NCBI GenBank assembly: GCA_038046725.1
Contig: JBBSVQ010000001.1
Span: 187,780 to 251,779 of the forward strand
Reading direction: 5' to 3'
Length of the DNA: 64,000 nt
From: Thermoplasmatota archaeon
GTDB lineage: Archaea > Thermoplasmatota > E2 > JACPAO01 > JAHFTW01
The position numbers and the translations under genes were made by a program. The notes under the pieces were generated by a model that saw only the letters and a program-made list of their open reading frames with translations, was not told where the DNA came from and made no database searches. Position 1 is the stretch's first letter. Each line of letters starts with the position of its first letter. Positions 50,903 to 64,000 of this stretch are shown here, one piece after another.

Positions 50903-51665
50903 CGTCCGGCGACTTCCGCTTCACGGCACCGGCGTCCGCGAGCTGCGACAGCAGGTCCGTGAGGAAGCCCAGCTGCGGACCAGAGAACGGCTTGCCCGTG
51001 TTGTTCTCCTGGTACCCGCGCTTCTTCGCGAAGTCGCCCAACGCTCCTCGTGCCTTCGGCGTTAGCACGTTGTACTGGGCGGCCTTCTTTGCCATGTGCC
51101 AGATGGCCTTCGACGGAAGGTTCGCGACGCGCTCCTCCTCGGAGGGACCTGTGATACCCCTGACTGCGGCCAAGGCCGTCAGATGCGGGCTGCGGCCGGC
51201 CGGCATGCCGTCGACAGCTGCCAGCACCTCGCGCAGCTGGGCGGGCTCAAGTCCGATGATGTCGAGCCAGGTCGTCTTCGGCGGTGGAGCGCGGTCCAGG
51301 ATGGCCAGGATCTCCTCGGGTTCGGCCCCCAGCTGCAGGACCGCGTAGACTTCGGCCTCGGTCGCGCCGACCCATTTGGCAGCCTGGTCGATGTCCAGGC
51401 CGGAGACGGTGTACGTCGCAGAAACCCGTTCGAGGTAGCCCTTGAACGGGTTGCTGGGCGACCGCCAGGCCTCGATGAACGCCTCGATGCGGCCACCGGA
51501 GCCAGACCCCGGAAGGGGCGGGAGCGCCGGTGGAGCCGCAAGGAGAGCAGGGGACGCTTTGGGAGGGGCGACCTTCGCTGCGTGCTTGGGCGTGGACCTG
51601 CTGGGCTTCTCCGATTCCCGCTTCGCCTTGGCGGGGGCCTTCTTCTTGCCGAACACGTCACTCAC
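50856..51665 (-). CDS. Hypothetical protein with Lys/Pro-rich N-terminal tail (269 aa)
   Basis: MSDVFGKKKAPAKAKRESEKPSRSTPKHAAKVAPPKA..., then a helical domain. Overlaps the GHKL gene stop by 8 nt and the PLD-SNF2 start by 47 nt, so the start is uncertain. Confidence 0.45.
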   Translation of the reverse strand: MSDVFGKKKAPAKAKRESEKPSRSTPKHAAKVAPPKASPALLAAPPALPPLPGSGSGGRIEAFIEAWRSPSNPFKGYLERVSATYTVSGLDIDQAAKWVGATEAEVYAVLQLGAEPEEILAILDRAPPPKTTWLDIIGLEPAQLREVLAAVDGMPAGRSPHLTALAAVRGITGPSEEERVANLPSKAIWHMAKKAAQYNVLTPKARGALGDFAKKRGYQENNTGKPFSGPQLGFLTDLLSQLADAGAVKRKSPDGDQAFCDAVLDALGR

Positions 51666-53103
51666 CTGCCGCCGCGTTGAGCCACAGGTTGCGGATGCGA
51701 CGGGCCTCGTCCGGAGGGTAGCCCTTTTCCCGTTCGAGGAAAAGCGCGAGCGAGTCGGACATCGCCAGGAACATTAGCAGCTTCTTGTCCTCGATGTACT
51801 TCACGAGCTTCGAGGAGCTGTTCACGACGGCCTGCAGTTCGCTGCCGCGCTCGGACTCGTACATGTAGGACCAGGGCGTGATGCTCTCGCCGAGGTCTTC
51901 CATCGTGTAGGTCAAGGTCAGCGGTCCGTCAGGGAGGTGGACCTTGTTCGCGTCGACGGTGACTTCCTTTCCCTGGTCGACCTGGACGGCAGGCCCCTTC
52001 CCGGCACCGGGCTCCGCAAAGGCCCCGTCGCCCTGCGCTGCCGTGCCGTCGGGCGCCTTGAACATGGAGGAGAGGACCTTGCCTGCGGCCAACGCCTGCT
52101 GCGCCCCTTGGATGGCGCGAGCGAAGCGGGTGCGGTCGCCCCGGCCACGGATCGTCGTGGCGCTGGCCTTCTCGAAGACCTTCATCTTCTCCTTCATGAC
52201 GTCCGTGGCCGCGCGCCACTCTGCGCTCTGCTTGGCGAAACCTTGCTTGTTGAAGTTCACCGGAACGAAGTCCACGTGCATCTCGCCGACGATGCGGGAG
52301 TTCATTGTATGGACGCGGAACCAGTCCTTGTTCCAGGGCTCCACCAGCTGGTTCAGCTTGTAGAGGTTGATCCCGAACTTGTCGTCGTTGTGGGTGATCT
52401 TGTCGAGGCCGACCCAGCCGTGCACCCTCCATTCGCCGCGCGGCCCGCACTTCTCGTCGATCTCGAAGCGTTTGTCCTCGATGAGGCTGTACGCCTTGGG
52501 AAGCACCACGTCGTTGCCCACGCGGAAGACGTCGCCCCGCTCGATGTGGGGCTTGTAGGCGTGGCCCAGCTGTTCCACGACCGCCCCGCGCATCGTGTCG
52601 GGTTGGCGTAGGTTCCGTACCACGATGGCCGTGCCATGCGCCCGGCCTTCGAGGGGACCGTCCTTGTCGGGCTTGCCCGCATGGATCACATGCTTCCACC
52701 GGACGCCGCTCTTCTGCTTGGCCCGCGCGCGCCACTCGTCAAGGTCGAAGGTCACCGAGTATTCGACGTCCTTGCCGTCGGGGCGAGTGTGGATCTCCCA
52801 GATGCGGCCTAGCGAAGCGCAGGCGGTCTTCATGCCAAGGCCGTAGACGCCCTTGCGCCCCTTCCGCGGAAGGAAGTCGTCCATGTTGACGCCGAGCCTG
52901 ACCGCTTCCGTCAGGATGTCCTGCTCCATGCCGGTGCCGTTGTCGACCACGACGATGCGGTCCCTGGCGAGGGTGACGTCCACCTCAATCGGCGTGTCGC
53001 CGACGCGCGCGTCGATGCTGTTGGCGACGAGCTCCACGATGGCCTCGGGGACCTTGAAGTTCGTAGCCCCAATCTTGTCGAGCATCGACTCGTCCGGAGT
53101 CAT
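51658..53103 (-). CDS. GHKL (Bergerat-fold, MORC/MutL/HSP90-like) ATPase
   Basis: N-box ...EAIVELVANSIDARV..., G1 ...IVVVDNGTGM..., G2/G3 ...GVYGLGMKTACASLG.... Start at the internal ATG (MTPDESML). The 103 upstream codons of the ORF are Arg/Cys-rich. Confidence 0.7.
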   Translation of the reverse strand: MTPDESMLDKIGATNFKVPEAIVELVANSIDARVGDTPIEVDVTLARDRIVVVDNGTGMEQDILTEAVRLGVNMDDFLPRKGRKGVYGLGMKTACASLGRIWEIHTRPDGKDVEYSVTFDLDEWRARAKQKSGVRWKHVIHAGKPDKDGPLEGRAHGTAIVVRNLRQPDTMRGAVVEQLGHAYKPHIERGDVFRVGNDVVLPKAYSLIEDKRFEIDEKCGPRGEWRVHGWVGLDKITHNDDKFGINLYKLNQLVEPWNKDWFRVHTMNSRIVGEMHVDFVPVNFNKQGFAKQSAEWRAATDVMKEKMKVFEKASATTIRGRGDRTRFARAIQGAQQALAAGKVLSSMFKAPDGTAAQGDGAFAEPGAGKGPAVQVDQGKEVTVDANKVHLPDGPLTLTYTMEDLGESITPWSYMYESERGSELQAVVNSSSKLVKYIEDKKLLMFLAMSDSLALFLEREKGYPPDEARRIRNLWLNAAAGE

Positions 53104-53243
53104 GTCGATGGAGATGTCCTTGGAATCACGCGGGATTGAAATCGACCACCATGCCCCAGTTACGGAAGCGCCAAGCACTGAACGGCCTTGCTTAAAAGGA
53201 AGCGGTGGGCCGCAATTATGGCAGGTGGGAGGCCGCCGACGGC

Positions 53244-54038
53244 TTACGCGGCAAGCGCCGCCACGTACTGCTCCCGTTGGCTCCAAGGGACCGGCGTGAT
53301 GGCATAGTTGCGCAGGGCCTGCAAGGCAGTGGGCGACGCCGGCTTCTCGATGTCGTTCACAAGAACGTAGGCGTCGGTCTCCTGGGACCGAGCTTCGCGC
53401 GTATCCTGCCAAGAGAAAATCGCCGCTTCGATTGTGTTCTTGTTCGTGCCGTTGAGCGCGCGCAAGGCGCGCTCTGGTGCCTTGGGCGACTTCGGGATGA
53501 TGAAGTCGAAGTGGTGCGTGTACCCGCTGCGGCCCGAAAGGCGCGAATTGTATACGTAGCGGATTTTGTGGCCATCGAGCCAGGCGGCGACGTCCTCGAC
53601 GAACATCTGCGCGACGTTCGGCTGGGCCATGTAGAACATGTCGCCGACGGCGAGCATAGCCTGCACGATGTCGTGCTTCTTCATGGGGAAATCCCCGGCG
53701 CCCGCGAAAACCTCGAGGCGGTGCTTGTCGCTGCGCTTGACCCCGAATCCATTGAGCACTTCATCGAGGACTGCAAGACGGTGCTTGCCGGCCATCTTGA
53801 AGCCAGACATGGCAAGGTCGTTCAGCACGTAGCCGTCGTCGTGGAGGAGGAATCCCTTGTCGACCTTCTGCACGTAGATCTGTAGCATGTCGTTGTGGCG
53901 GTCGAGGTACGGGGTGGTAATCTCCACGTTCGTGCCGATGTCGCGCAAGGCGGTGCTGTCGCGGAGCCATTTCCAGTGCGCGTCGAGCAGCTCCTTGATC
54001 TCCTCGCCCATGCTTGGCGGAGTGATGGGTTTGGCCAT
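53244..54038 (-). CDS. DUF1828/DUF1829-like protein
   Basis: ...WKWLRDSTALRDIGTNVEITTPYLDRHNDMLQIYVQKVDKGFLLHDDGYVLNDLAMSGF... matches my memory of the DUF1828 N-domain pattern. The family assignment is unverified. Confidence 0.45.
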   Translation of the reverse strand: MAKPITPPSMGEEIKELLDAHWKWLRDSTALRDIGTNVEITTPYLDRHNDMLQIYVQKVDKGFLLHDDGYVLNDLAMSGFKMAGKHRLAVLDEVLNGFGVKRSDKHRLEVFAGAGDFPMKKHDIVQAMLAVGDMFYMAQPNVAQMFVEDVAAWLDGHKIRYVYNSRLSGRSGYTHHFDFIIPKSPKAPERALRALNGTNKNTIEAAIFSWQDTREARSQETDAYVLVNDIEKPASPTALQALRNYAITPVPWSQREQYVAALAA

Positions 54039-54476
54039 TCAGACGAACCCCTGCTGGACCGGCAGCTTCCTGATGTTGCAGTAAGAAAGGAACTGCTCCA
54101 GGGTCTTCTGGACGTCGGTGGGGTGGGTGAACTCAGCGGGCAGCGGGTACGCCCATTTGTCGCCGAAGCCTTCGCGGTAGAGGTGCAGGTGCGGCGCGGG
54201 GACGACTTCGCCGTCGGGATTTCGGTGGGGTGCGCTGCCGAAGTCTAGGCGTGCGAGGATGACGGTCTGGCGGGCGCGGTTCTGGTAGGTGCCCTTGAGG
54301 TCGATGTTGGCGCGGCGGACGTCGAGCTGGAACTCCTCTTTCTCGCCCTCGGCGCGCAGGTCAATCTGCTGCAGGGTGCCGGGGTTGGGGAAGCTCAAGA
54401 CGTCCTTCTTGTCCACGGGGAACTTGGCCGCTTTCAGCAGGCGGTCTGCCCATTCCTGGTTCATCGGCGCCTCCAA
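54039..54476 (-). CDS. Hypothetical protein (145 aa), first gene of the minus-strand operon
   Basis: MEAPMNQEWADRLLKAAKFPVDKKDVLSFPNPGTLQQIDLRAEGEKEEFQLDVRRANIDLKGTYQNRARQ.... Its stop is 1 nt from the next gene. Confidence 0.45.
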   Translation of the reverse strand: MEAPMNQEWADRLLKAAKFPVDKKDVLSFPNPGTLQQIDLRAEGEKEEFQLDVRRANIDLKGTYQNRARQTVILARLDFGSAPHRNPDGEVVPAPHLHLYREGFGDKWAYPLPAEFTHPTDVQKTLEQFLSYCNIRKLPVQQGFV

Positions 54477-54645
54477 TGAGGCGCCTCCCCTCTGAAACCG
54501 TTTCGAGGTTGATCTAACCGGGCCAGCGCCTGTCCAGGCGTTTCATCCCTGTTGGGCGCTTGGGACGCCTTTATGCCCTTAGCGAGGCTCGCATCGTGAG
54601 CACTGGCCATCCTGTTTCGGGTTGGCTGATGCCGGAGCAGGACGC

Positions 54646-57246
54646 ATGGCCAAGTCGGACCGGAAAGACGTCGAGACCTACGAGCACAAGGCCGCCCAGC
54701 GCCCGAACAACCCACCGGTGGGCCTTGTGACGAAGGACACGGAGGCGCGAGAGAAGCGCCGCACCTACCAATACACCGATAACGTCCACGTCAAGCCCCA
54801 CGACAAACACCAGGACCCTGCCCTGGTCTGGGCGACGAAGGCCGAGCGCACTAGCTTCGAGGTCCCGACTGTCAACCTCCACGTCCATGAGCGCATCGAC
54901 CCGCAGACGATTCTGCGCGCGGTGCGCAAGAAGGGTGCGACCGTACAGCAATCCCTTTTCCAGTCCTCGGACCAGAACCTCCCCCTATCCAAGGCAGTCG
55001 AATTCTACGAGCACGCGCAAGGCTGGTCAAACCGGCTCGTCGCCGGCGACAGCCTGCTGGTGATGAACTCGCTCATCGAGAAAGAAGCGATGGCCGGCAA
55101 GGTCCAGATGGTCTACTTCGACCCGCCTTACGGCATCGAGTACAAGTCGAACGCCCAGCCATTCGTCGACAAGCGCAGCGTTGCCGAAGGCGACAAGGAC
55201 GCCGACTTGGACCAAACGCCGGAGCAGATCAAGGCGTTCCGTGACACCTGGGAGCTCGGGATTCACTCCTACCTCTCGTTCATCCGCGACCGGATGTTGC
55301 TGGCGCGTGAACTCCTGACACCAAGCGGCAGCGTGTTCATCCAGATTAGCGACCAAAACCTCCACCACATCCGCGAGGTGATGGACGAGGTGTTCGGCCC
55401 AGGTTGCTACGTCGTCACGATTCCTTTCAAGAAGAAGGGCAGCCAGCGCTCCGGCTTGCTCCGGCCCGTCAACGACTACTTGATCTGGTATACTCGCAGC
55501 CCCGTTGATTCCGGCGTGCCGAAGTTCCACGCGCTCTTCGAAAAGTGGGCCCTCGACCCGGAAACACTCTCGGAATTCCGTTACGTTGAGCTTCCGGGCG
55601 GCAAAGAAATGCTACTCGGGCACCTGAAACGACCTGACGGGTCGGACGTCGACTATGCAAGTCACCCCGAGCTCCTGATGGCGGACTACCCCAAGGCGCG
55701 CCTCTACCGAGCCAACCCTCTCAAGAGTGGCGGCGTTCGAGCCAACCAGAGCCTGCCGTTCACCTACAAGGGCAAGACGTACGAGCCCGGCCCGGGCAAC
55801 TGTTGGAAACACACAGCTCGAACCGATGATGGAAGCCCAAGCGGAATGGACCGCCTCGCCAAGGCCGGCCGGCTAATCGGAACGAAAACCGACTTGCGCT
55901 ACCGCAACTACCTGGATGACTTCGGTTACAAACCTGTGTCCAACTGGTGGGATGGACTCGGCGGGGCCTCCAACCCAATCTACGTCGTGCAGACCAACAC
56001 GGAAGTCGTGAAGCGCTGCATGCTGATGACGACAGACCCGGGCGACCTGGTAATTGACATCACTTGCGGCTCCGGAACGACGGCTTACGTCGCCGAAGAA
56101 TGGGGCCGTCGCTGGATGACATGCGACACGTCGCGCGTTGCGGTGACGCTTGCCAAGCAACGGTTGATGACTGCGGCTTTCCCGTTTTATCGACTTCGTC
56201 ATCCGGACGAAGGCGTTTCGTCCGGACTTCGCTACAAGCAGGTTGCGCACATCACGTCCTCGACGATTGCGAATGACGACAAACCCGTGATGGAAGACGT
56301 GTACGATGACCCCGAAGTCGACGGGTCCAAGGCGCGCGTTACCGGACCCTTCACTGTCGAAGCCGTGCCGGCGCCTGTCGTTCTGAGTTTGGACGGATCG
56401 CATCAAGGGCTGGCACCCTCGAATGGTCAGGACGTTGCCCGGAGTGGCGAAACGGCACGCGAGGATCAGTGGAGGACGCAGCTCATGCAAACCGGGATTC
56501 GAACGCTGAAGGGACAGGTGGTCCGTTTCACGCGTCTGGAACCCGCTGCGGCCAGTACCTACTTGCACGCGACTGGTGAGACCGCCGAGACACCATCTCG
56601 TCGTGTGGCGGTATCGTTCGGGCCCGAACATCACCCCATGGAACGCAAGCAGGTCGAGTTTGCATGGGAAGAAGCGCGCCAGATGGCCGACCGCCCTCAA
56701 CTCCTTGTCTTCGCGGCGTTCTCGTTTGATGCTGACACGGCGAAGGACATCGATAACGCCAAGCCAGACAAGATGGGCATGACGTTCTGGAAGGTCCAGA
56801 TGAACACGGACCTGCTCACCGAAGACCTCCGTAAGGGGGGCAAGTCCGACGACTCGTTCTTCCTCGTCGGCCAACCCGATGTGGCCTTGGAGCGCATCAA
56901 GGACGGCGAACACAAGGGAAAGGTCCGCGTCGTTGTCCGGGGCTTCGACTACTTCGACGTCCGCAGCAGCAAGCTGGAATCGGGCAACTCTTCACGCATC
57001 GCGGTATGGATGCTCGACCCCGACTACGACGGGCGCAGCGTGTTCCCGCAGCAGGTCTTCTTCCCCATGGCTGCCGACGACGAAGCGTGGGGTAGGCTTG
57101 CGAAGAACCTCAACGGCGAGATTGACTTGGACCGCATCAAGGCCTACTGGGGGAAGGAATCTCTCCCCTTCCAGCCCGGCAAGCGCGTCGCCGTCAAGGT
57201 CGTTGATGACCGTGGCATCGAGAGCATGAAGGTCTTGGACGTGTAG
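54646..57246 (+). CDS. mod: Type III-like R-M modification methyltransferase (N6A/N4C beta-class, DPPY)
   Basis: ...NRLVAGDSLLVMNSLIEKEAMAGKVQMVYFDPPYGIEYKSN... (motif IV), then motif I ...LVIDITCGSGTTAYVAEEWGRRWMTCD.... At 866 aa it carries a C-terminal extension. Confidence 0.8.
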   Translation: MAKSDRKDVETYEHKAAQRPNNPPVGLVTKDTEAREKRRTYQYTDNVHVKPHDKHQDPALVWATKAERTSFEVPTVNLHVHERIDPQTILRAVRKKGATVQQSLFQSSDQNLPLSKAVEFYEHAQGWSNRLVAGDSLLVMNSLIEKEAMAGKVQMVYFDPPYGIEYKSNAQPFVDKRSVAEGDKDADLDQTPEQIKAFRDTWELGIHSYLSFIRDRMLLARELLTPSGSVFIQISDQNLHHIREVMDEVFGPGCYVVTIPFKKKGSQRSGLLRPVNDYLIWYTRSPVDSGVPKFHALFEKWALDPETLSEFRYVELPGGKEMLLGHLKRPDGSDVDYASHPELLMADYPKARLYRANPLKSGGVRANQSLPFTYKGKTYEPGPGNCWKHTARTDDGSPSGMDRLAKAGRLIGTKTDLRYRNYLDDFGYKPVSNWWDGLGGASNPIYVVQTNTEVVKRCMLMTTDPGDLVIDITCGSGTTAYVAEEWGRRWMTCDTSRVAVTLAKQRLMTAAFPFYRLRHPDEGVSSGLRYKQVAHITSSTIANDDKPVMEDVYDDPEVDGSKARVTGPFTVEAVPAPVVLSLDGSHQGLAPSNGQDVARSGETAREDQWRTQLMQTGIRTLKGQVVRFTRLEPAAASTYLHATGETAETPSRRVAVSFGPEHHPMERKQVEFAWEEARQMADRPQLLVFAAFSFDADTAKDIDNAKPDKMGMTFWKVQMNTDLLTEDLRKGGKSDDSFFLVGQPDVALERIKDGEHKGKVRVVVRGFDYFDVRSSKLESGNSSRIAVWMLDPDYDGRSVFPQQVFFPMAADDEAWGRLAKNLNGEIDLDRIKAYWGKESLPFQPGKRVAVKVVDDRGIESMKVLDV

Positions 57247-57248
57247 CG

Positions 57249-57695
57249 ATGGCTCAGGCCATGGTCGAGAGACTAAACGCACAACATTGGTTGCTCATCA
57301 CGAGTCGGGCTTCGTGGGAGCGAATGGAGCAAGCTGGCGCGTGGGCATTCGCAGACAAGAGTCTGAAACGGGCGTCCATGCTTCACCGAGGCACGCAGGG
57401 CGTCGTGTACTGCACCGGCGAGAGCTCCTTCGCAGCGGTTATCGAGTTCACCGGTGAATTCCGCCAGCACGCCCGCTCAACGGTCTTCGGGGCCCTCTAC
57501 CCGCACGCCATGCCGTTCCGCGTCGTCGCCGCCCCTGGCTTCTCACTCCCGATGGCGGCCGTGGTTCAGACCCTCGACTTCATCGGCAAGAAGGATTACT
57601 GGTTCAGCTACCTTCAAGGGCAGGCTCTTCGCCCTTTGTCCCGTGAGGACTTCCACGTTCTGGCTTCTCGGTTGCAGACGAAGGGGGCTCGGTGA
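57249..57695 (+). CDS. EVE/PUA-like (modified-base reader fold) protein between mod and res
   Basis: ...AQHWLLITSRASWERMEQAGAWAFADKSLKRASMLHRGTQGVVYCTGESSFAAVIEFTGEF... matches my memory of EVE/ASCH-type PUA-like domains. Its stop overlaps the res start (TGATG). Confidence 0.45.
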   Translation: MAQAMVERLNAQHWLLITSRASWERMEQAGAWAFADKSLKRASMLHRGTQGVVYCTGESSFAAVIEFTGEFRQHARSTVFGALYPHAMPFRVVAAPGFSLPMAAVVQTLDFIGKKDYWFSYLQGQALRPLSREDFHVLASRLQTKGAR

Positions 57696-60523
57696 TGGTC
57701 GGAGTACCGAAGATTGATCGCCTCATCCAGAACAACCCGTACCGCGAGCCTGCGAGGTACTGGAAGTTCAACGCGACCAGCCGCACCTGGCGCTTGACCG
57801 AGGGACGGCGCGAGGCGGGTTACATGGTGCAGTCGGGCGACCCTGACGACCCCGGCGATTATCGGGCACTACGCCTGGCCAACCAGGTCCGTCCGCGCGT
57901 CAAGGAATGGCGGGCCGCCGGCTACCCAGGCATCACGGGAGTGACTCGGCGACTGCTGGAACACTGGACGGACCCCAACGCCCGGACGTTCCCGTTCTTC
58001 TTCTGCCAACTGGAAGCCATCGAGACGCTTGTCTGGCTCGCGGAAGCCCCGCCGTCCGCCAAGCAGGGCCTCGACTGGGAGACCGACGGCGGCGACTTCG
58101 TGCGCGAGTGCTGCAAGATGGCCACCGGCACGGGCAAGACTATCGTCATGGGCATGGTCATCGCGTGGCACGTACTCAACAAGGTCGCGTACCCCCAAGA
58201 CCCGCGTTTCAGCAAAAACATCCTTGTCGTTGCCCCCGGTCTAACGGTCAAGGAGCGCCTTCAGGTGCTGAAGCACCCCGACGGCATCTACCGGGAATTC
58301 AGCATGATTCCCGGCGCCATGCGCGACCAATTCGCCCAAGGCCGCGTCGTTGTCGAGAACTGGCACACCCTCGCCCGCCGCGAAGAGGTCGGCCCACGCG
58401 TCATGCGCAAGAAGATGGGCGCTGAGTCGGACGAAGCGTACTGCCGCCGCGTCCTGGTAGACATCGCGAAAGCCAGCAATCTCCTCGTCATCAACGACGA
58501 AGCCCACCACGCGTGGCGCGTCGACCCGAAACGCAAGGCCGAGTTCAAAGGGGAAGACAAGGACGAAGCCCAACGCGCCACGGTCTGGATCGACGGCCTC
58601 GACATCATCAACAAGGCCCGCGGCATCCTGAAGTGCTACGACTTCACCGCCACGCCCTTCGCATCAGCGGGCAAGGGAAACCAGGAGAACGTCATCTTCG
58701 AATGGGTCGTCAGCGACTTCGGCTTGAACGACGCAATCGAGAGCGGGCTCGTCAAGACGCCGCGCCTGCCAACTGTGGACAACAGCATCCCGGACGCCGA
58801 GACGTTCCGCAGCAGACTCCTGCACATCTACGGTGAGTCCGAAGTGCAGAAGGACTTGAGTCGGAAGGCCAAGCCAGAGGAACCGCTGCCCCAACTGGTT
58901 CGCAACGCCTACGAACTGATGACCAAGGACTGGGCCAGGACGCGCGACGACTGGGCCAAGGAAGGCCATCCCGTTCCCCCCGTGATGATTACTGTCGCCA
59001 ACACCACATTCACGGGAGCCCGCATTGAGCACGGATTCCGGACCCACGACCTGGGCGTCGAAGCTGCACACGACGAGAAGGGATTGCTCCGCATCGACAG
59101 CAAAATGCTCAAGGACGTCGAAGAGCGCGACGCGGGAGTCTCGCTCGCTTTGGACCTGGACGACGAAGCCGAGTTGACGGCGGATCAGCGCGCAGAGCTG
59201 CTCCGCCGTCAGGTCGACAGCGTGGGCAAGCCCGGCAAGCCCGGCGCCCACATTTTCAACCTCGTCAGCGTCATGATGCTGACCGAAGGCTGGGACTGCC
59301 GCACCGTGACCCACATCATGGGCCTGCGCGCGTTCACTTCCCAGCTGCTCTGCGAGCAGGTCATCGGCCGCGGCTTGCGCCGCACGTCGTACGAGACCGA
59401 GCAGGTCGAGTTCCCCGACGGCCGCAAAGAGCAACTCTTCGCCGCCGAGTACGTCAACGTGTTTGGCATCCCGTTCTCGTTCCTGCCACTCGAATCGGAC
59501 GAGACGGGGACATCCAAGAAGCCACGCCCCACCACGGACATCCACACACTAGACGAGCGAAAGGACCTGGCTATCAAGTGGCCGAACGTGCTCCGCATCG
59601 AGCACCGGTTGAGCCACCAGCTCCGCCTGGACACTGCCAAGGTTCGCCCGTTCAAAATCGACCCCTCGCTCGTGAGCACAGAAGCGCAACTGGCGCCCTT
59701 GATGGACAACCGACCAAACCCTGACCGCGCGACGCTCATTGAGCTGCAGGATTTGGCCGACACGCGCTACCGTCAGCAGGCCATTGTGTTCCGCCAAGCG
59801 AAGAGCCTCTTCGAGAACATGAAGGAAGACTGGAAGGGCAACCCCGCCACCCTCGCATCCCAGACGGTCCGCCTCGTGGAGGAATTCCTGGCCAGCGGCA
59901 AGGTGGACTTCGGCGGCGTCAAGTTCGGCGAAGACGACGTCCGCCGTCGCATCGTCTTGGCACTGAACACGCCCCGAATCGTTTACGCCCTGAAGGACGC
60001 CATCACGCAGCAGTCCAGCGAAGAGTCCCACATCGTCCTCGATGCGACACATCCGGTAGGTTCGACAGAAGACATGCTGCCGTGGGCCACGCGCAAGAAG
60101 TCGCGCGAAACGAAGAAGAGCCACGTCAACCGCGTCGTCCTCGACTCGGCATGGGAGGCTTCGGACGCCTACGTCATCGACCAGTCGAAGCACGTCGAGG
60201 CCTGGGCCAAGAACGACCACCTCGGGTTCGAGATCGCCTACATCGAGATGGGCCGGGTTGCCAGCTATCGCCCCGACTTCCTCGTCCGCCTGACCAACGG
60301 CGTCAACCTGGTACTAGAGACGAAGGGAAAGGAGCGCGACGCCGACCGGACCAAGTGGACGGCCATGGACGCTTGGATTGCGGCCGTCAACCAGCACGGC
60401 GGGTTCGGGCAGTGGGAATTCAGGACGTCGCGACTCCCCGGCGAGGCGAAGGAAATCCTTGCAGAGCTTGCCGCACGTGGTCCCGTCGGACCCGCTTCTG
60501 CAGGCAAGGCACAATCTAGTTAG
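57695..60523 (+). CDS. res: Type III restriction enzyme Res subunit (SF2 helicase + C-terminal endonuclease)
   Basis: Walker A ...KMATGTGKTIVMGMV..., DEAH ...LLVINDEAHHAW..., motif VI ...QVIGRGLRR..., and a C-terminal nuclease-like region ...VVLDSAWEASDAYVIDQSKHVEAWAKNDHLGFEIAY.... Confidence 0.85.
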   Translation: MVGVPKIDRLIQNNPYREPARYWKFNATSRTWRLTEGRREAGYMVQSGDPDDPGDYRALRLANQVRPRVKEWRAAGYPGITGVTRRLLEHWTDPNARTFPFFFCQLEAIETLVWLAEAPPSAKQGLDWETDGGDFVRECCKMATGTGKTIVMGMVIAWHVLNKVAYPQDPRFSKNILVVAPGLTVKERLQVLKHPDGIYREFSMIPGAMRDQFAQGRVVVENWHTLARREEVGPRVMRKKMGAESDEAYCRRVLVDIAKASNLLVINDEAHHAWRVDPKRKAEFKGEDKDEAQRATVWIDGLDIINKARGILKCYDFTATPFASAGKGNQENVIFEWVVSDFGLNDAIESGLVKTPRLPTVDNSIPDAETFRSRLLHIYGESEVQKDLSRKAKPEEPLPQLVRNAYELMTKDWARTRDDWAKEGHPVPPVMITVANTTFTGARIEHGFRTHDLGVEAAHDEKGLLRIDSKMLKDVEERDAGVSLALDLDDEAELTADQRAELLRRQVDSVGKPGKPGAHIFNLVSVMMLTEGWDCRTVTHIMGLRAFTSQLLCEQVIGRGLRRTSYETEQVEFPDGRKEQLFAAEYVNVFGIPFSFLPLESDETGTSKKPRPTTDIHTLDERKDLAIKWPNVLRIEHRLSHQLRLDTAKVRPFKIDPSLVSTEAQLAPLMDNRPNPDRATLIELQDLADTRYRQQAIVFRQAKSLFENMKEDWKGNPATLASQTVRLVEEFLASGKVDFGGVKFGEDDVRRRIVLALNTPRIVYALKDAITQQSSEESHIVLDATHPVGSTEDMLPWATRKKSRETKKSHVNRVVLDSAWEASDAYVIDQSKHVEAWAKNDHLGFEIAYIEMGRVASYRPDFLVRLTNGVNLVLETKGKERDADRTKWTAMDAWIAAVNQHGGFGQWEFRTSRLPGEAKEILAELAARGPVGPASAGKAQSS

Positions 60524-60546: not shown

Positions 60547-62109
60547 GTGGCGAAGGTCGTCGGTGGGCGGGTGGTCGGGCTTTTCGGCCGCCTTTCGCTG
60601 TCCTGGACGTTCAACGAGCAAGGGCTGGCCGTCCTTCACGGCCCCAACGGCTCAGGGAAGTCGACGTTCCTCCGAATCCTCGAGGCCACGTTCAACCGCC
60701 AGATGGAGGCGCTTTCGATGCTGCCATTCAGGGCGGTCGAGGTGGACTTCGACGACGGGCGCCGCCTGCGCATCCTGGACCGTGCGTTCCTGAACGCTGA
60801 GGTCCGGATTGACGAGGAAGTCCGCGGCCGCTTCGAGGAGCTTGTCAGTGAGGCTATACAGAAAGACGGGAACATCTCGGATGCCGCTGCCGCAGAACTT
60901 TGGGAGGAGGCCGTTAGAGATGCCGACTGGTACTCCTGGGACGACGCGATGCGCGATCCCCCTCCCCACGGGGCCCGCAGGCCTCTGAAACTCGAGCTGA
61001 TGGGCGCCCCGGCCCGCCAGCGCACGACGATCGCCGGGACATACATCAACGAACCTGGAGAACGGCGGAAGCTACTTCGGCCGGGCATCGTCGAGGCGGC
61101 AAACCGGTACCATAGCCCGGTGCTGGACGAACTGAAGGACTTGGTCTGCACGCGGATCAGCGGACCGGTGGGTTCTGCGACCGACCTCGAGACGTTCCGA
61201 GGAAGCCCGGAGGCCCTTCTGCGGCGCATGAACGCAGAGCTGACCGCCATCAGGCGTTTGTTTGCGCCGCCCTATGGCGTGCAGGTACGGCTTCTCGGCG
61301 AGCAGGAGCGCGCCGACCCGGACGACTTCATTGCAGCCCTTCACGAGACCAAGCGGAATCCGCCGCCCGCGGGCGACGCGCAGATGCCCTGGTACAACAA
61401 ACGGGCAGAAGAGGCCGCAGCCAGGGAACGCGAGTGGGACGAGCTGCAGCGGACATTGGGTTCGAAGCGACAAAACGAATCTGGTGCGCCAAAGCCCTCT
61501 GACCGCCAGGCCTTGTCAAACTCGCCAGGGTTCCCCGACGTGGTCAGCTTCTTCGCGACAATCCCTCCCGGGCACTGGCTCGAACGGGAGCTTGCGGGGG
61601 AACTGGCCTATCGGCTGGCCCAAAGTGCTGAACCGAAGGAGCGCACGGCCTTGGCCGAGCGGCTTCGGGAACTGAGTTTGGTGGTAGACGCGCAGGTCAA
61701 GCCCTACGACCGGTTCGTCTACAGGATCAACGAGTTCCTGGACCAGCGGCGGACCGGCGCTTCAATCCACGTCTCCGGCTTCGACGGGCCGCCGGTCGTC
61801 GGGTTCTGGGCCGGCGAGAACGAGATTCCCGGCGACCGGCTGTCCTCCGGGGAGACATCACTGATCGCAATCGCCCACCGCGTCTCCACCTCGTGCGCAC
61901 GTGCGGCGGAAGGGAAGTACGTCCAGCACATCGTCCTGCTCGACGAGCCAGAGGCCAGTCTTCACCCGACCTGGCAGCGAGGCCTGCTCGACCTTGTCAT
62001 GGGTTTCTTCCACAAGGGCCGCGACTGCCTCGTTGTGGCGACGCACAGTCCGGACGTCGCATCGTCCCACCTCTCCGCCATGCAAGAGGTGCCCGACCCT
62101 GCGGCCTGA
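60547..62109 (+). CDS. ABC-type (AAA_15/21, OLD/AriA-like) ATPase
   Basis: Walker A ...LHGPNGSGKSTFLRILEAT..., a long helical insertion, and C-terminal Walker B/D-loop/H-loop ...IVLLDEPEASLHPTWQRGLLDLV...VVATHSPDV.... Confidence 0.7.
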   Translation: MAKVVGGRVVGLFGRLSLSWTFNEQGLAVLHGPNGSGKSTFLRILEATFNRQMEALSMLPFRAVEVDFDDGRRLRILDRAFLNAEVRIDEEVRGRFEELVSEAIQKDGNISDAAAAELWEEAVRDADWYSWDDAMRDPPPHGARRPLKLELMGAPARQRTTIAGTYINEPGERRKLLRPGIVEAANRYHSPVLDELKDLVCTRISGPVGSATDLETFRGSPEALLRRMNAELTAIRRLFAPPYGVQVRLLGEQERADPDDFIAALHETKRNPPPAGDAQMPWYNKRAEEAAAREREWDELQRTLGSKRQNESGAPKPSDRQALSNSPGFPDVVSFFATIPPGHWLERELAGELAYRLAQSAEPKERTALAERLRELSLVVDAQVKPYDRFVYRINEFLDQRRTGASIHVSGFDGPPVVGFWAGENEIPGDRLSSGETSLIAIAHRVSTSCARAAEGKYVQHIVLLDEPEASLHPTWQRGLLDLVMGFFHKGRDCLVVATHSPDVASSHLSAMQEVPDPAA

Positions 62110-62179
62110 GCAGCTTCTCGCAGACGCACGCGGGCGGGCTGCCGCACGCCAATACCTTGCCACTGGGTCGCGACCGGGC

Positions 62180-63190
62180 GTGCTCCTCATCGGCGAGAGC
62201 GACGCGGACGAGTCGAAGCTCATGAAACTGCTGGGGCGCGTCCCTCATCTCGGGCGCCGCGACGACGCCGCGCGCGCCATGGGCGTGACCCGTACGCCAG
62301 GGGGAAAGGACATCGCGGAGGCCGAGGCAAAGCTATGGGCCACGGGTGAGGCCCGGCACCAGTCCGTCAAGGGAGTGGTGATGACGAGGGACCTGGACAT
62401 GGACTACGCGCAGCATGTCGATGACAGGTCAATCCAAGTTGGAACGTTCCCGGGTACGCGTCTAGCAGCCGTTGTGGAAACCGCGCTCGCAAAGGGCCTT
62501 GGAAGCGGTGGTGTCCGGGTCGATGTGGTGGTCACGCCACGCAGCGACCTGGAGACAACCGTACTTGCCTACGCGCGCGGTGCTCCTCCCGGCCTGGGGC
62601 CCGCCGGCCAGGAGGACCTTTGGCGCCGGCTTGTCGCGCTCGCATGGCTCCAGCAAGCGATTGTATGGGAGCTCCAGACCGACGGGGCCGTGGTGAAGTC
62701 GAGTGTCTTCTACGACGACAAACCTGCTCCTTGGGAGAGCGATGCAGTGAGCGCGGCGCGAACCTGGAACGACGCCAACATACGCCGCGCTGCCGATGCA
62801 TTTGCAAAGGCGCTAGGCGCCGAATCCAAGGCTCCGGCCCAGTCCTTCCCAGGCCTCACTTTGGTTGACAAGCGGGGCAACCATGTCTCACGAGACCACC
62901 TGGCAGGGGCACTCGAGTTCCTTGAGCGGCACCGTGAGGCGTGCGAGGGAACGGATGGCGCGACTACGGGCCCTGCAGCAGCGCTTGACCGATTCGCCCG
63001 CTCGCCCTGCGGTTGCGTGTGGACCTTGGTCAACGGCCATGCCCTTTTCCGATTGACGGCTGCCCTCGTGGGCCAGGCCTCCCGGACCCTTGAGGGGCGG
63101 GTCGTCTGGGGAATGGTGGAGTCCAGGGAAATCCAAGCAGCTGCAAAGTCAGACCCGTCTTTCGGGGCGCGGCTGGACAAGCTCCTGTGA
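62180..63190 (+). CDS. Toprim/DUF4435-like (OLD-family nuclease, AriB-like) partner protein, GTG start
   Basis: (GTG)LLIGESDADESKLMKLLG... carries a Toprim-like conserved Glu plus acidic cluster, and a later DLDMDY resembles the DxD motif. The frame has no ATG before MKLLG. An upstream extension to 61901 would overlap the ATPase gene by 209 nt. Confidence 0.45.
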   Translation: MLLIGESDADESKLMKLLGRVPHLGRRDDAARAMGVTRTPGGKDIAEAEAKLWATGEARHQSVKGVVMTRDLDMDYAQHVDDRSIQVGTFPGTRLAAVVETALAKGLGSGGVRVDVVVTPRSDLETTVLAYARGAPPGLGPAGQEDLWRRLVALAWLQQAIVWELQTDGAVVKSSVFYDDKPAPWESDAVSAARTWNDANIRRAADAFAKALGAESKAPAQSFPGLTLVDKRGNHVSRDHLAGALEFLERHREACEGTDGATTGPAAALDRFARSPCGCVWTLVNGHALFRLTAALVGQASRTLEGRVVWGMVESREIQAAAKSDPSFGARLDKLL

Positions 63191-63254: not shown

Positions 63255-64000
63255 ATGCCTGGTATCAGGGTGGTCGAGCTCTTCGCCGGCGTCGGCGGCT
63301 TCAGGCTTGGCCTCGACCGGACGAACGGCCCGTTCGAGACCGTCTGGTGGAACCAGTGGGAACCCGCAACCAAGGTCCAGCATGCGTGGGCCTGCTACGC
63401 CCGCCGGTTCCACGGCGACGTCTCCGCCGCGCCCCCCTTCAGCAACACCGACGTCACCAAGGTCCCCGTCGACGCCGTCCCGCAGCACGACCTCCTTGTC
63501 GGCGGGTTCCCCTGCCAAGACTACAGCGTGGCCACCACGCTCGACAAGGCCGGCGGACTCCAAGGAAAGAAGGGTGTGCTGTGGTGGGAGATCAAGCGCA
63601 TCCTCGACGCCCGCAAGCCTCGCTACGTCCTGCTTGAGAACGTGGACCGGCTGCTCAAGTCGCCTGCAAGCCAAAGAGGGCGGGACTTCGGCGTCCTGCT
63701 CGCATGCCTGCGGGACTTGGGTTACGTCGTGGAGTGGCGTGTTGTCAATGCAGCCGACTATGGCAACCCCCAGCGCCGCCGACGCGTGTTCATCTTCGCC
63801 GCCCGCGACAACAGTGGCCTAGGCAAGAGCATCGCCCGCAAGGCGCACCGCAGCAACTACCTCTTCACAGAAGGGCTGTTCGCCAAAGCCTTCCCCACGG
63901 ACTTCGAGCCCTTCGCCGTCGAGGAAGAAGAAGGGGAGCTTTTCGACAACGACGTCCGCGAAGTGAGCGCGTCGTTCCACCACCTGTTCCAGAACGCCGG
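63255..64000 (+). CDS. dcm: DNA (cytosine-5)-methyltransferase, partial (runs off window end)
   Basis: Motif I ...VVELFAGVGGFRLGL..., motif IV ...LLVGGFPCQDYSVA..., motif VI ...YVLLENVDRLL..., motif VIII ...QRRRRVFIFAAR.... Confidence 0.85.
   Translation, partial: MPGIRVVELFAGVGGFRLGLDRTNGPFETVWWNQWEPATKVQHAWACYARRFHGDVSAAPPFSNTDVTKVPVDAVPQHDLLVGGFPCQDYSVATTLDKAGGLQGKKGVLWWEIKRILDARKPRYVLLENVDRLLKSPASQRGRDFGVLLACLRDLGYVVEWRVVNAADYGNPQRRRRVFIFAARDNSGLGKSIARKAHRSNYLFTEGLFAKAFPTDFEPFAVEEEEGELFDNDVREVSASFHHLFQNA

What the first reader, a model, noticed from the sequence alone, without database searches (positions are those of the whole stretch)
60547..63190. PARIS-like / split-OLD pair: ABC ATPase plus a Toprim-like protein that has no ATG start and overlaps annotation space of the ATPase
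The 520-aa protein has an ABC-type Walker A (GPNGSGKST), a long helical insert, and the C-terminal Walker B/H-loop (LLDEPEASLHP...ATHSP) typical of AAA_15/21 OLD-family ATPases. Immediately downstream, in a frame with no ATG until residue 108, is a protein that must begin at GTG 62180 (LLIGESDADE...). Its conserved Glu, acidic cluster and later DxD-like DLDMDY resemble a Toprim/DUF4435 nuclease. That architecture matches AriA/AriB of PARIS, the anti-restriction-triggered abortive system, or a split class-1 OLD nuclease. Its placement directly after an R-M operon is what one would expect for a backup that fires when phage Ocr-like proteins inhibit the R-M. A gene caller restricted to ATG starts would miss or mis-start the Toprim gene.
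Basis: partly seen in the sequence, partly recalled or inferred. Interest (0 to 1): 0.7.

Follow-up and report, generated by a model that had tools for sequence, protein, structure and literature searches.

The report
Divergent archaeal PARIS-like defence gene pair
An AriA-like ABC ATPase gene is followed by a protein with no detectable relatives that is most likely a very diverged AriB-type Toprim nuclease, so this is probably a PARIS-type anti-virus pair inside an archaeal defence island that standard detection tools would miss.

Summary
A 520-aa ABC ATPase (60547-62109) carries Walker A, the signature motif, Walker B and the H-loop. A 336-aa ORF follows it, starting at GTG 62180. NCBI already annotates exactly this protein in a Thermoplasmatota MAG, so gene callers do not miss it.

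The ATPase is AriA-like. AriA is its best solved relative. Of 37 full-length relatives in GTDB genomes, 36 have a DUF4435/Toprim gene directly downstream.

The partner has no hit in Pfam, PADLOC, NCBIfam or PHROGs, and no homologue among 1.8 billion representative proteins. AlphaFold models were too poor to test the fold.

A collinear profile alignment to the relatives' partners is specific and significant (z≈6-7; controls reach at most 4; z≈0 against unrelated profiles). It aligns E6, D10, D71, D73 and D123 with the AriB metal-binding acids. The catalytic Glu lies 85 nt after the ATPase stop, against a median of 83 nt in relatives.

Differences from the family are a missing N-terminal helix, two Toprim insertions and GHD changed to GHA.

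Verdict: a divergent PARIS-like variant of modest interest. The R-M "backup" idea is untested, and the R-M linkage is not conserved.

The parts
60547..62109 (+). AriA-like ABC ATPase gene (520 aa, GTG start)
   Evidence: Pfam AAA_15 56.3 bits and AAA_21 56.5 bits. PADLOC PtuA 4.7e-18 and AriA 2.4e-17. Best solved relative is AriA 8ux9 at 1.3e-11, against PtuA 5.6e-5 and OLD 8.6e-4. The 4-sequence profile gives AriA 3.4e-31 against 3.6e-16 for the next hit. The N-terminus aligns with relatives. Identical to the NCBI 520-aa 'AAA family ATPase' record.
60640..60666 (+). Walker A / P-loop GPNGSGKST (aa 32-40; K38 corresponds to AriA K39)
   Evidence: The AriA K39A phenotype is reported in PMC11464382.
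61840..61854 (+). ABC signature motif LSSGE (aa 432-436)
   Evidence: Invariant in the alignment with relatives. Coordinates.
61930..61968 (+). Walker B IVLLDEPE (aa 462-469) followed by the D-loop region SLHP (aa 471-474)
   Evidence: It aligns to the AriA segment VLIDEPEISLH.
62038..62052 (+). H-loop ATHSP (aa 498-502)
62110..62179 (+). 70-nt spacer between the ATPase stop and GTG 62180. It occupies the position where relatives encode the partner's N-terminal helix of about 25 aa. It is open in the partner's frame but has no ATG, GTG or TTG; only CTG 62099 lies upstream.
   Evidence: Start-codon list. In 49 relatives the median gap is -4 nt, range -47 to +44. The 27 upstream codons show no significant similarity to the family N-terminus: 104/500 and 69/500 shuffles score as high.
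62180..63190 (+). Partner gene (336 aa, GTG start): probable highly diverged DUF4435/AriB-type Toprim nuclease, with no detectable sequence relatives
   Evidence: No hit in Pfam, PADLOC, NCBIfam or PHROGs. No homologue in the indexed or the exhaustive search. Collinear profile similarity to relatives' partners gives z=6.3-6.8, with 0/2000 shuffles and 0/254 control ORFs as high. It is specific: z is about 0 against HNH and ATPase profiles. Synteny: 36 of 37 relatives.
62183..62209 (+). Strand beta1 plus the acidic motif LLIGESDAD. E6 and D10 are candidates for AriB E26 and D30.
   Evidence: MAFFT and the DP alignment both place E6 and D10 in the family's invariant E and D columns. The Glu codon lies 85 nt after the ATPase stop, against a median of 83 nt in 49 relatives. 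AriB residues are from PMC11464382.
62375..62407 (+). VVMTRDLDMDY: strand beta3 plus DxD (D71, D73), candidates for AriB D88 and E90
   Evidence: HMMER local hit to the family segment 'gvlaivDrD'. MAFFT places them in invariant columns.
62432..62512 (+). Insertion of about 27 aa (IQVGTF...GLGSGG; predicted strand plus helix) between the DxD strand and the next core strand. It is absent from all 18 family members. A second insertion of about 12 aa lies at 62243-62278.
   Evidence: Alignment A4, DP alignment, secondary structure of the low-confidence models.
62534..62566 (+). TPRSDLETTVL: matches the DUF4435-type motif TDxHDL(E/D)xxIL. D123 is the candidate for AriB E122.
   Evidence: Best local hhalign and BLAST match and a HMMER mini-hit. 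Invariant column.
63020..63049 (+). WTLVNGHALF: matches the family motif W..C.GHDL of the C-terminal helical domain, with the invariant Asp replaced by Ala288
   Evidence: HMMER and hhalign local hits. D223 column to A.
54622..60523 (+). Context: type III R-M operon (Mod, 148-aa unknown ORF, Res) on the same strand, ending 23 nt before the ATPase gene
   Evidence: Pfam N6_N4_Mtase and ResIII. PADLOC MTase_III 5e-124 and REase_III. Gene calls.
63255..64000 (+). Context: C5 cytosine methyltransferase gene starting 64 nt after the partner. The full gene is a 599-aa Dcm-Vsr fusion and is followed by a BglII-like endonuclease gene beyond the window.

Best explanation
This is a two-gene PARIS-type module (AriA-like plus AriB-like). 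It sits in the chromosome of a Thermoplasmatota archaeon, in a defence island between a type III R-M operon and a type II R-M.

Shown: the first gene encodes an ABC ATPase of the AAA_15/AAA_21 kind whose nearest characterised relative is AriA.

Inferred, with good but indirect support: the second gene encodes an extremely diverged DUF4435-type Toprim nuclease. It keeps the five metal-binding acidic positions (E6, D10, D71, D73, D123, corresponding to AriB E26, D30, D88, E90, E122). It has two insertions in the Toprim domain. As annotated it lacks the N-terminal helix, and the C-terminal GHD motif reads GHA.

By analogy only: the ATPase oligomer holds the nuclease inactive. Binding of a viral protein to the ATPase, dependent on ATP, releases the nuclease. 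The nuclease then cuts an essential RNA (tRNA in E. coli PARIS) and stops translation in the infected cell.
For: ATPase:
- Pfam AAA_15 and AAA_21 score above the PARIS detection thresholds.
- AriA is the best solved relative, both alone (1.3e-11; next PtuA 5.6e-5) and as a profile (3.4e-31 against 3.6e-16).
- The nearest relatives P0003-P0005 score best on PADLOC AriA, 1e-25 to 1e-29.

Synteny:
- Of 37 GTDB loci whose ATPase matches the window ATPase end to end, 34 have a DUF4435-like ORF immediately downstream. Two more have a 350-aa Toprim-type variant.
- These include Thermoplasmata and Methanosarcinales MAGs.
- The L002 partner hits Pfam DUF4435 at 1.4e-6 and PADLOC AriB at 3.5e-10.

Partner:
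- hhalign is exceeded by 2 of 300 shuffles.
- Gotoh local alignment with cheap gap extension scores 43.8 bits against 20.2±3.8 for shuffles, 0/2000 as high.
- The composition-normalised z is 6.8. For 254 control ORF segments the mean is 0.47, the SD 1.17 and the maximum 4.0.
- z is 5.7 with the independent 18-sequence profile, but -0.35 and -0.03 against HNH-partner and ATPase profiles.
- MAFFT, hhalign -mact 0 and the DP alignment all give the same collinear motif order.
- The candidate catalytic Glu codon lies 85 nt after the ATPase stop, against a median of 83 nt (range 46-130) in 49 relatives.

Detection limits: Pfam DUF4435 misses 10 of 18 clear members of the relatives' partner family. 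The family profile does not retrieve E. coli AriB from the PDB. Failure to detect this partner is therefore expected for diverged members.

Mechanism: taken from PMC11464382, PMC12409363 and PMC9122126.
Against: - No curated model recognises the partner: Pfam DUF4435, Toprim and OLD-like_TOPRIM, PADLOC AriB, NCBIfam, PHROGs.
- BLASTP against relatives' partners is not significant.
- Standard hhalign gives only E=0.18 and 0.048 on 16-20 columns.
- Matching 5 of 7 invariant columns is reached by 15 of 200 shuffles, so the residue matches alone are weak.
- Raw DP scores are matched by 2-12% of ORFs from lower-GC genomes.
- Two family-invariant positions are lost: R149 to Ser, and D223 to Ala.
- The N-terminal helix has no canonical start codon and no detectable similarity. 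In E. coli AriB, residues 1-53 sit over the AriA ATP sites.
- AlphaFold models were poor: pLDDT 36 and 51.
- The DP test was designed after the motifs had been seen.
Confidence: 0.72

Rival explanations
1. The module descends from PARIS but is decaying or inactive. The partner lost its original start codon and N-terminal helix, lost the GHD aspartate and the conserved Arg, and now drifts as a lineage-specific remnant beside an intact ATPase.
For: - The gap from ATPase stop to partner start is 70 nt. In 49 relatives the median is -4 nt and the maximum +44.
- No canonical start exists where relatives start; only CTG 62099.
- R149 and D223 equivalents are lost.
- Third-position GC is about 0.7 in the partner and about 0.8 in the ATPase.
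- No relative is known anywhere.
Against: - The frame stays open for 336 codons (429 counting the upstream extension). By my estimate from base composition, that has a chance of about 2e-5 in 65% GC DNA.
- All five Toprim acidic positions are kept.
- The ATPase motifs are all intact.
- The sequence is identical in independent assemblies.
Confidence: 0.13
2. The partner is not a Toprim protein at all. It is an unrelated, lineage-specific effector or adaptor that replaced AriB downstream of an AriA-like ATPase, and the motif matches are chance in an Asp/Glu-rich protein.
For: - No hit in any curated library.
- 7.5% of shuffles match at least 5 invariant columns.
- Fold searches do not single out Toprim.
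- AAA_15/21 ATPases pair with many effector types. HNH-like partners occur at related loci.
Against: - The collinear profile score is far above shuffles and control ORFs, and it is specific to the DUF4435-like profiles.
- Independent tools pick the same motifs in the same order.
- The position of the Glu relative to the ATPase stop matches the relatives.
- 36 of 37 full-length ATPase relatives pair with a Toprim-type partner.
Confidence: 0.1
3. The pair belongs to another ATPase-based system, or is an accessory of the adjacent type III R-M rather than an autonomous unit. Candidates are Septu (PtuA/PtuB), Gabija, class 1 OLD, and MADS-type or 'restriction-system-associated AAA' proteins.
For: - The best single PADLOC hit of the ATPase is a PtuA model, 4.7e-18. 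mad3 scores 1.6e-12 and GajA 8.5e-10.
- NCBIfam TIGR04435 'restriction system-associated AAA' scores 4.5e-6.
- The pair is on the same strand as Res and 23 nt downstream of it.
Against: - These hits cover only the shared ABC head.
- The partner scores z=-0.35 against the HNH/PtuB-like partner profile.
- No UvrD-like helicase is adjacent for Gabija. The nearest helicases are the Res subunit and a SNF2 gene on the other strand.
- ATPase and partner are separate ORFs in different frames, and there is no OLD-like_TOPRIM hit.
- TIGR04435 scores 25.6 bits against a cutoff of 300.
- Only one of the 80 related loci has a homologue of this window's Mod, and none has its Res or Dcm.
Confidence: 0.05

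Closest known systems
PARIS (AriA/AriB) of E. coli B185 and related P4-satellite systems (PDB 8ux9, 8v45-8v49)
   Same: - Two adjacent same-strand genes, ATPase first.
- The ATPase is of AAA_15/AAA_21 type, with AriA as its best solved relative.
- The partner is about 300-340 aa, with candidate Toprim acids in AriB order (E, D at +4, DxD, D) and a helical C-terminal part.
   Different: - The partner fails the Pfam DUF4435 and PADLOC AriB models.
- It has two insertions in the Toprim domain and GHA instead of GHD.
- As annotated it has no N-terminal helix. In E. coli that region (residues 1-53) docks on AriA.
- The positions of AriB R28 and R31 are occupied by Asp8 and Glu11.
- The ATPase is 56 aa longer than AriA.
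- The host is an archaeon, and the module is chromosomal, directly downstream of a type III R-M rather than in a satellite hotspot.
Unnamed metagenomic and GTDB family of DUF4435-like partners downstream of the window ATPase's nearest relatives (alignment A2; loci L001-L082)
   Same: - Same gene order, and the same distance from the ATPase stop to the catalytic Glu.
- Same motif order: EGxxD, G(K), DxD, TDxHDL(E/D), W..C.GHDL.
- About half of its members also escape Pfam DUF4435.
   Different: - Family members are 280-295 aa and start at or overlapping the ATPase stop.
- They are mutually detectable at E<1e-40.
- The window protein is 336 aa, starts 70 nt downstream, and is not detectable by BLAST or standard HMMER thresholds.
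Class 1 OLD nucleases (P2 Old; Thermus scotoductus OLD, PDB 6p74)
   Same: An ABC ATPase head combined with a Toprim nuclease. The ATPase gives a weak sequence match to 6p74 at 8.6e-4.
   Different: OLD is one polypeptide with an OLD-type Toprim (PF20469). Here there are two ORFs in different frames, with DUF4435-type motifs and no PF20469 hit.
Septu (PtuA/PtuB) and retron-associated PtuA
   Same: The ATPase head scores similarly on PtuA and AriA PADLOC models.
   Different: The Septu partner is an HNH nuclease of about 200-225 aa with a CxxC motif. The window partner shows no similarity to that profile, z=-0.35.

Membership tests
PARIS (operational definition of Rousset et al. 2022, PMC9122126) | ATPase gene matching Pfam AAA_15 at 32 bits or more, or AAA_21 at 27 bits or more | tested here: met
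   AAA_15 56.3 bits and AAA_21 56.5 bits. The rule is quoted.
PARIS (operational definition of Rousset et al. 2022, PMC9122126) | Neighbouring gene matching Pfam DUF4435 (PF14491) at 27 bits or more | tested here: not met
   No DUF4435 hit at E up to 10 for the 336-, 363-, 385- or 429-aa versions. No PADLOC AriB hit either. Pfam also misses 10 of 18 clear members of the relatives' partner family.
PARIS | Two-gene cassette on one strand, ATPase followed by the nuclease gene (or a fusion) | tested here: met
   60547-62109 then 62180-63190, both on the + strand, 70-nt gap.
PARIS | ATPase nearer to AriA than to other ABC-type defence ATPases | tested here: met
   Against the PDB: AriA 1.3e-11, PtuA 5.6e-5, OLD 8.6e-4. 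As a profile: 3.4e-31 against 3.6e-16. Caveat: the top single PADLOC model is PtuA, 4.7e-18 against AriA 2.4e-17.
PARIS / DUF4435 | Toprim acidic residues equivalent to AriB E26, D30, D88, E90, E122 | tested here: inconclusive
   E6, D10, D71, D73 and D123 fall in the family's invariant columns in MAFFT and DP alignments. But 15 of 200 shuffles match at least 5 of the 7 invariant columns. The alignment as a whole is supported at z of about 6-7.
PARIS / DUF4435 | Toprim fold followed by a helical domain in the partner | tested here: inconclusive
PARIS | AriA hexamer sequestering AriB, release by a viral trigger such as Ocr, and tRNA cleavage | not testable with these tools
   Known only from experiments on E. 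coli PARIS (PMC11464382, PMC12409363).
Class 1 OLD nuclease | ATPase and Toprim in one polypeptide, with an OLD-type Toprim (PF20469) | tested here: not met
   The ATPase ends at a TGA in a different frame from the partner, at the same place as in two-gene relatives. No PF20469 hit.
Septu | PtuB HNH nuclease next to the ATPase | tested here: not met
   No HNH or PtuB hit. z=-0.35 against a profile of 15 HNH-like partners from related loci.
Gabija | GajA with fused Toprim, plus an adjacent GajB UvrD-like helicase | tested here: not met
   GajA matches only through the ATPase head, 8.5e-10. No UvrD-like gene is adjacent.
TIGR04435 restriction system-associated AAA ATPase | Score above the NCBIfam cutoff of 300 bits | tested here: not met
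   25.6 bits.

The most novel reading that the evidence does not exclude
The partner is a remodelled Toprim effector. It no longer has the N-terminal AriA-docking helix, carries two insertions next to the active site, and has lost the GHD aspartate. It would then be regulated or targeted differently from E. coli AriB. The pair may also be co-transcribed with the type III R-M as a hard-wired 'restriction plus anti-anti-restriction' operon in an archaeon.
Probability: 0.12. Interest if true: 0.55.

Novelty: new variant of a known kind. Interest (0 to 1): 0.3.

Why it matters
PARIS-type systems are counted by HMM hits to DUF4435. Here the ATPase is recognisable, but the effector is invisible to every curated model and to an exhaustive sequence search. 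Even among clear relatives, Pfam misses more than half of the partners. Censuses of PARIS-like defence are therefore probably underestimates, especially in archaea and other poorly sampled lineages. Synteny with AriA-like ATPases is the better handle. The insertions and the missing N-terminal helix mark this effector as a test case for which parts of AriB are needed for docking on AriA and for target choice. It does not change the current picture of how such systems work.

Tried and rejected
Searches and tests that gave nothing usable:
- Pfam, PADLOC, NCBIfam and PHROGs scans of the partner in four N-terminal versions: no hits.
- Word-indexed search of 5.8 billion proteins: the partner matched only itself.
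- Exhaustive phmmer against 1.84 billion representatives: itself plus a spurious match to a repeat protein.
- phmmer of the partner against PDB sequences: nothing.
- BLASTP against the two nearest relatives' partners: not significant.
- hhalign -glob: meaningless.
- Single-sequence AlphaFold: pLDDT 36.
- AlphaFold with the family alignment: pLDDT 51. This input is partly circular.
- Counting matched invariant columns: shown by shuffling to be weak, p about 0.075.
- The raw DP score against ORFs from lower-GC genomes was not exceptional, because composition drives it. It was replaced by per-sequence z-scores.
- The family profile against the PDB does not find E. coli AriB; it gives only weak Toprim and RNase M5 matches.

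Ideas rejected:
- Upstream start at TTG 62033 or CTG 62099, or an ATPase-partner fusion by frameshift. The ATPase C-terminus ends where relatives end. The upstream 27 codons show no family similarity. Callers choose GTG 62180. A non-canonical start cannot be excluded.
- Conserved linkage to this R-M. Only one of the 80 related loci has a homologue of this window's Mod, and none has its Res or Dcm.
Full report
**1. What is in the sequence**

The window has 64.7% G+C. At 60547-62109 (+) there is a 520-aa ORF with a GTG start. Its motifs are:
- Walker A, GPNGSGKST (aa 32-40)
- ABC signature, LSSGE (aa 432-436)
- Walker B, IVLLDEPE (aa 462-469), followed by SLHP
- H-loop, ATHSP (aa 498-502)

In a different frame a stop-free stretch runs 61901-63190. 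Its first ATG is codon 108 (62222). GTG 62180 is the only canonical start codon between the ATPase stop (62107-62109) and that ATG. Upstream in the same frame there are only TTG 62033, TTG 61994, GTG 61901 and a CTG at 62099.

Both proteins exist as public records. They are a 520-aa 'AAA family ATPase' and a 336-aa 'hypothetical protein AABY18_01190' of a Candidatus Thermoplasmatota archaeon MAG. Other assemblies carry the same gene calls, and their DNA is identical over more than 11 kb. The claim that gene callers would miss or mis-start the second gene is not.

**2. The ATPase**

Family and structure searches agree on the kind of ATPase:
- Pfam gives AAA_15 (56.3 bits) and AAA_21 (56.5 bits).
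- PADLOC gives PtuA 4.7e-18, AriA 2.4e-17, mad3 1.6e-12 and GajA 8.5e-10. All of these match through the ABC head.
- Among solved structures AriA is clearly best: 1.3e-11, against PtuA 5.6e-5 and OLD 8.6e-4.

The protein has few close relatives. The best is at E 1e-13.

A profile of the ATPase and its three nearest relatives (A3) hits AriA at 3.4e-31 over both the N- and C-terminal halves. The next hit is a retron ATPase at 3.6e-16. Those three relatives also score best on PADLOC AriA models, 1e-25 to 1e-29. So the ATPase is AriA-like, not RecF- or SbcC-like.

**3. What relatives carry downstream**

The two nearest relatives with enough contig (L001, L002) have 290- and 284-aa ORFs at or overlapping the ATPase stop. 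These two ORFs are homologous to each other at 2e-15. The L002 ORF hits Pfam DUF4435 (1.4e-6, above the cutoff) and PADLOC AriB (3.5e-10).

A scan of GTDB genomes with A3 returned 80 loci. In 37 of them the ATPase match spans both ends of the window protein:
- 34 have a DUF4435-like ORF immediately downstream.
- 2 have a 350-aa Toprim-type variant.
- 1 has something else.

The set includes Thermoplasmata and Methanosarcinales MAGs. Loci that match only the C-terminal ABC region are mixed: DUF4435-like, HNH-like and others.

**4. The partner protein: negative results**

- No hit in Pfam, PADLOC, NCBIfam or PHROGs for any N-terminal version.
- No homologue in the indexed search of 5.8 billion proteins.
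- The exhaustive search of 1.84 billion representatives returned only the protein itself and a spurious repeat protein.
- No PDB sequence match.
- BLASTP to relatives' partners is not significant.
- AlphaFold gave pLDDT 36 without an alignment and 51 with the family alignment.
- Foldseek found nothing.

It is also partly circular, because the second model used the family alignment.

**5. The partner protein: positive evidence**

I aligned 18 partners of relatives (A2). The invariant residues are E29, D33, D77, D79, D100, R149 and D223. They correspond in order to the AriB acids E26, D30, D88, E90 and E122 described in PMC11464382.

Scores against A2, and against a 66-sequence profile that adds the GTDB partners:
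- HMMER ranked the window protein 34th of 2000 shuffles against A2, and 9th of 5000 against the larger profile (E=0.0067 for one target). The mini-hits fell on the E...DxD, TDxHDLE and GHD regions.
- hhalign was exceeded by 2 of 300 shuffles.
- hhalign -mact 0, MAFFT and my own alignment gave the same collinear solution. LLIGESDAD aligns to lEGxxD, TPGGKD to pcxGkxN, VVMTRDLD to vlaIvDrD, VVVTPRSDLETTVL to nlxxTDxHDLExxIL, and WTLVNGHALF to WxxCxGHDL.

Standard tools do not reward collinearity across long insertions, so I ran a Gotoh local alignment with cheap gap extension:
- The score was 43.8 bits, against 20.2±3.8 for shuffles. None of 2000 shuffles reached it. Across five gap settings z ranged from 2.9 to 6.3: none of 2000 shuffles reached the real score at three settings, 2 did at a fourth, and 28 did at the stiffest (open 10, extend 0.5).
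- Raw scores of real ORFs from lower-GC genomes overlapped this value, which is a composition effect.
- I therefore normalised each control by its own shuffles. The partner has z=6.8. The 254 control ORF segments have mean 0.47, SD 1.17 and maximum 4.0.
- The signal is specific. z is 6.3 and 5.7 against the two DUF4435-like profiles, -0.35 against a profile of HNH-type partners, and -0.03 against the ATPase profile.

One check cuts the other way. The count of matched invariant columns (5 of 7) is reached by 7.5% of shuffles, so the acidic residues alone prove little.

A positional argument is independent of all this. The candidate catalytic Glu codon lies 85 nt after the ATPase stop. In 49 relatives the median is 83 nt, range 46-130.

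Finally, Pfam DUF4435 misses 10 of 18 clear A2 members. The A2 profile does not retrieve E. coli AriB from the PDB, and gives only weak Toprim and RNase M5 matches. Non-detection is therefore normal in this fast-evolving family.

**6. How the partner differs from the family**

- **Start and N-terminus.** In relatives the partner starts at or overlapping the ATPase stop (median gap -4 nt) and has about 25 residues before strand beta1. Here the gap is 70 nt and there is no canonical start in between. The 27 upstream codons show no similarity to the family N-terminus. In E. coli, residues 1-53 of AriB sit over the AriA ATP sites. So either docking differs, or a non-canonical start such as CTG 62099 is used, or the gene is truncated.
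- **Insertions.** There are two: about 12 aa after the first helix, and about 27 aa (a predicted strand plus helix) between the DxD strand and the next core strand.
- **Lost invariant residues.** The invariant Arg of the GxLR motif and the Asp of the GHD motif are not conserved; the partner has S and A288 at those positions.

**7. Surroundings**

The pair lies in a defence island. In order:
- a SNF2 helicase resembling PbeA/DrmD/BrxH, a 269-aa unknown and a MORC-like GHKL ATPase, all on the minus strand
- PDC-M24A/B (DUF6978 plus DUF1828/1829)
- on the plus strand, type III Mod, a 148-aa unknown and Res
- 23 nt later the ATPase, then the partner
- 64 nt later a Dcm-Vsr fusion, followed by a BglII-like endonuclease on the opposite strand

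The rest of the window encodes ordinary chromosomal genes such as transporters, glycosyltransferases and a histidine kinase.

Only one of the 80 related loci has a homologue of this window's Mod, and none has its Res or Dcm. Published PARIS works without any R-M (PMC9122126). The idea that the pair backs up this R-M is plausible as defence-island layering, but nothing here shows it.

**8. Mechanism, comparison and verdict**

The most likely reading (about 0.7) is a PARIS-type module. An AriA-like ATPase would sense a viral protein and release a Toprim nuclease that arrests translation. That mechanism is taken by analogy from E. coli PARIS.

On membership, the ATPase criteria and the gene order are met. 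The defining DUF4435 HMM criterion was tested and not met, and the fold test is inconclusive. I therefore describe the pair as a divergent variant that works like PARIS, not as a certified member.

Rivals:
- a decaying remnant (0.13)
- a non-Toprim replacement effector (0.10)
- another ATPase-based system or an R-M accessory (0.05)

[quoted passage not shown] The find is therefore of modest interest. Its main value is to show how far the effector can diverge beyond current detection models.

Noticed in passing
window 57249-57695 (+): A 148-aa ORF sits between the type III Mod and Res genes. It starts 2 nt after the Mod stop, and its stop overlaps the Res start. It has no Pfam or PADLOC hit. 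An extra small gene inside a type III R-M operon is unusual.
   Followed up: partly
window 53244-54476 (-): A DUF6978 protein (145 aa) and a DUF1828/DUF1829 protein (264 aa) match the PADLOC candidate defence system PDC-M24A/B strongly (1e-48 and 3.5e-91). They are divergently oriented from the type III R-M.
   Followed up: partly
window 47591-53412 (-): Three consecutive minus-strand genes: a SNF2-type helicase (1103 aa; PADLOC PLD_Helicase, PbeA, DrmD and BrxH models, 1e-47 to 3e-57), a 269-aa protein with no hits, and a MORC-like GHKL ATPase (HATPase_c_3 plus Morc6_S5). This may be an uncharacterised multi-gene defence system.
   Followed up: partly
L083 11076-13701 (just beyond the window end): The C5 methyltransferase that starts at window 63255 is a 599-aa Dcm-Vsr fusion. 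A convergently oriented BglII-like endonuclease gene follows it. After that comes a run of about 12 small or unknown minus-strand ORFs (L083 13754-20137) with no Pfam hits, possibly a mobile element.
   Followed up: no
alignment A2 (partners of ATPase relatives; loci L001, L002 and proteins P0012-P0031): Pfam DUF4435 recognises only 8 of 18 members of this clearly homologous partner family. The 'DRDW' clade is missed entirely. The family profile does not retrieve E. coli AriB from the PDB. PARIS-type systems are probably under-counted by HMM-based detection.
   Followed up: partly
L010 5277-6323 and L012 5456-6508: Two relatives, from a Betaproteobacteria MAG and a Crocosphaera MAG, carry a longer (about 350 aa) Toprim-type partner with variant motifs: GFVDREF, SKGHSLEN and CHGHIG in place of DxD, HDLE and GHD. 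This looks like a distinct subfamily.
   Followed up: no
window 62099-62179 (+): The stretch that corresponds in position to the partner's ancestral N-terminal helix is still open in frame, but it has no ATG, GTG or TTG. A CTG sits at 62099, 11 nt inside the ATPase gene. Three relatives have their start at exactly that -11 offset. It is unclear whether this is a lost start codon or a non-canonical one.
   Followed up: partly
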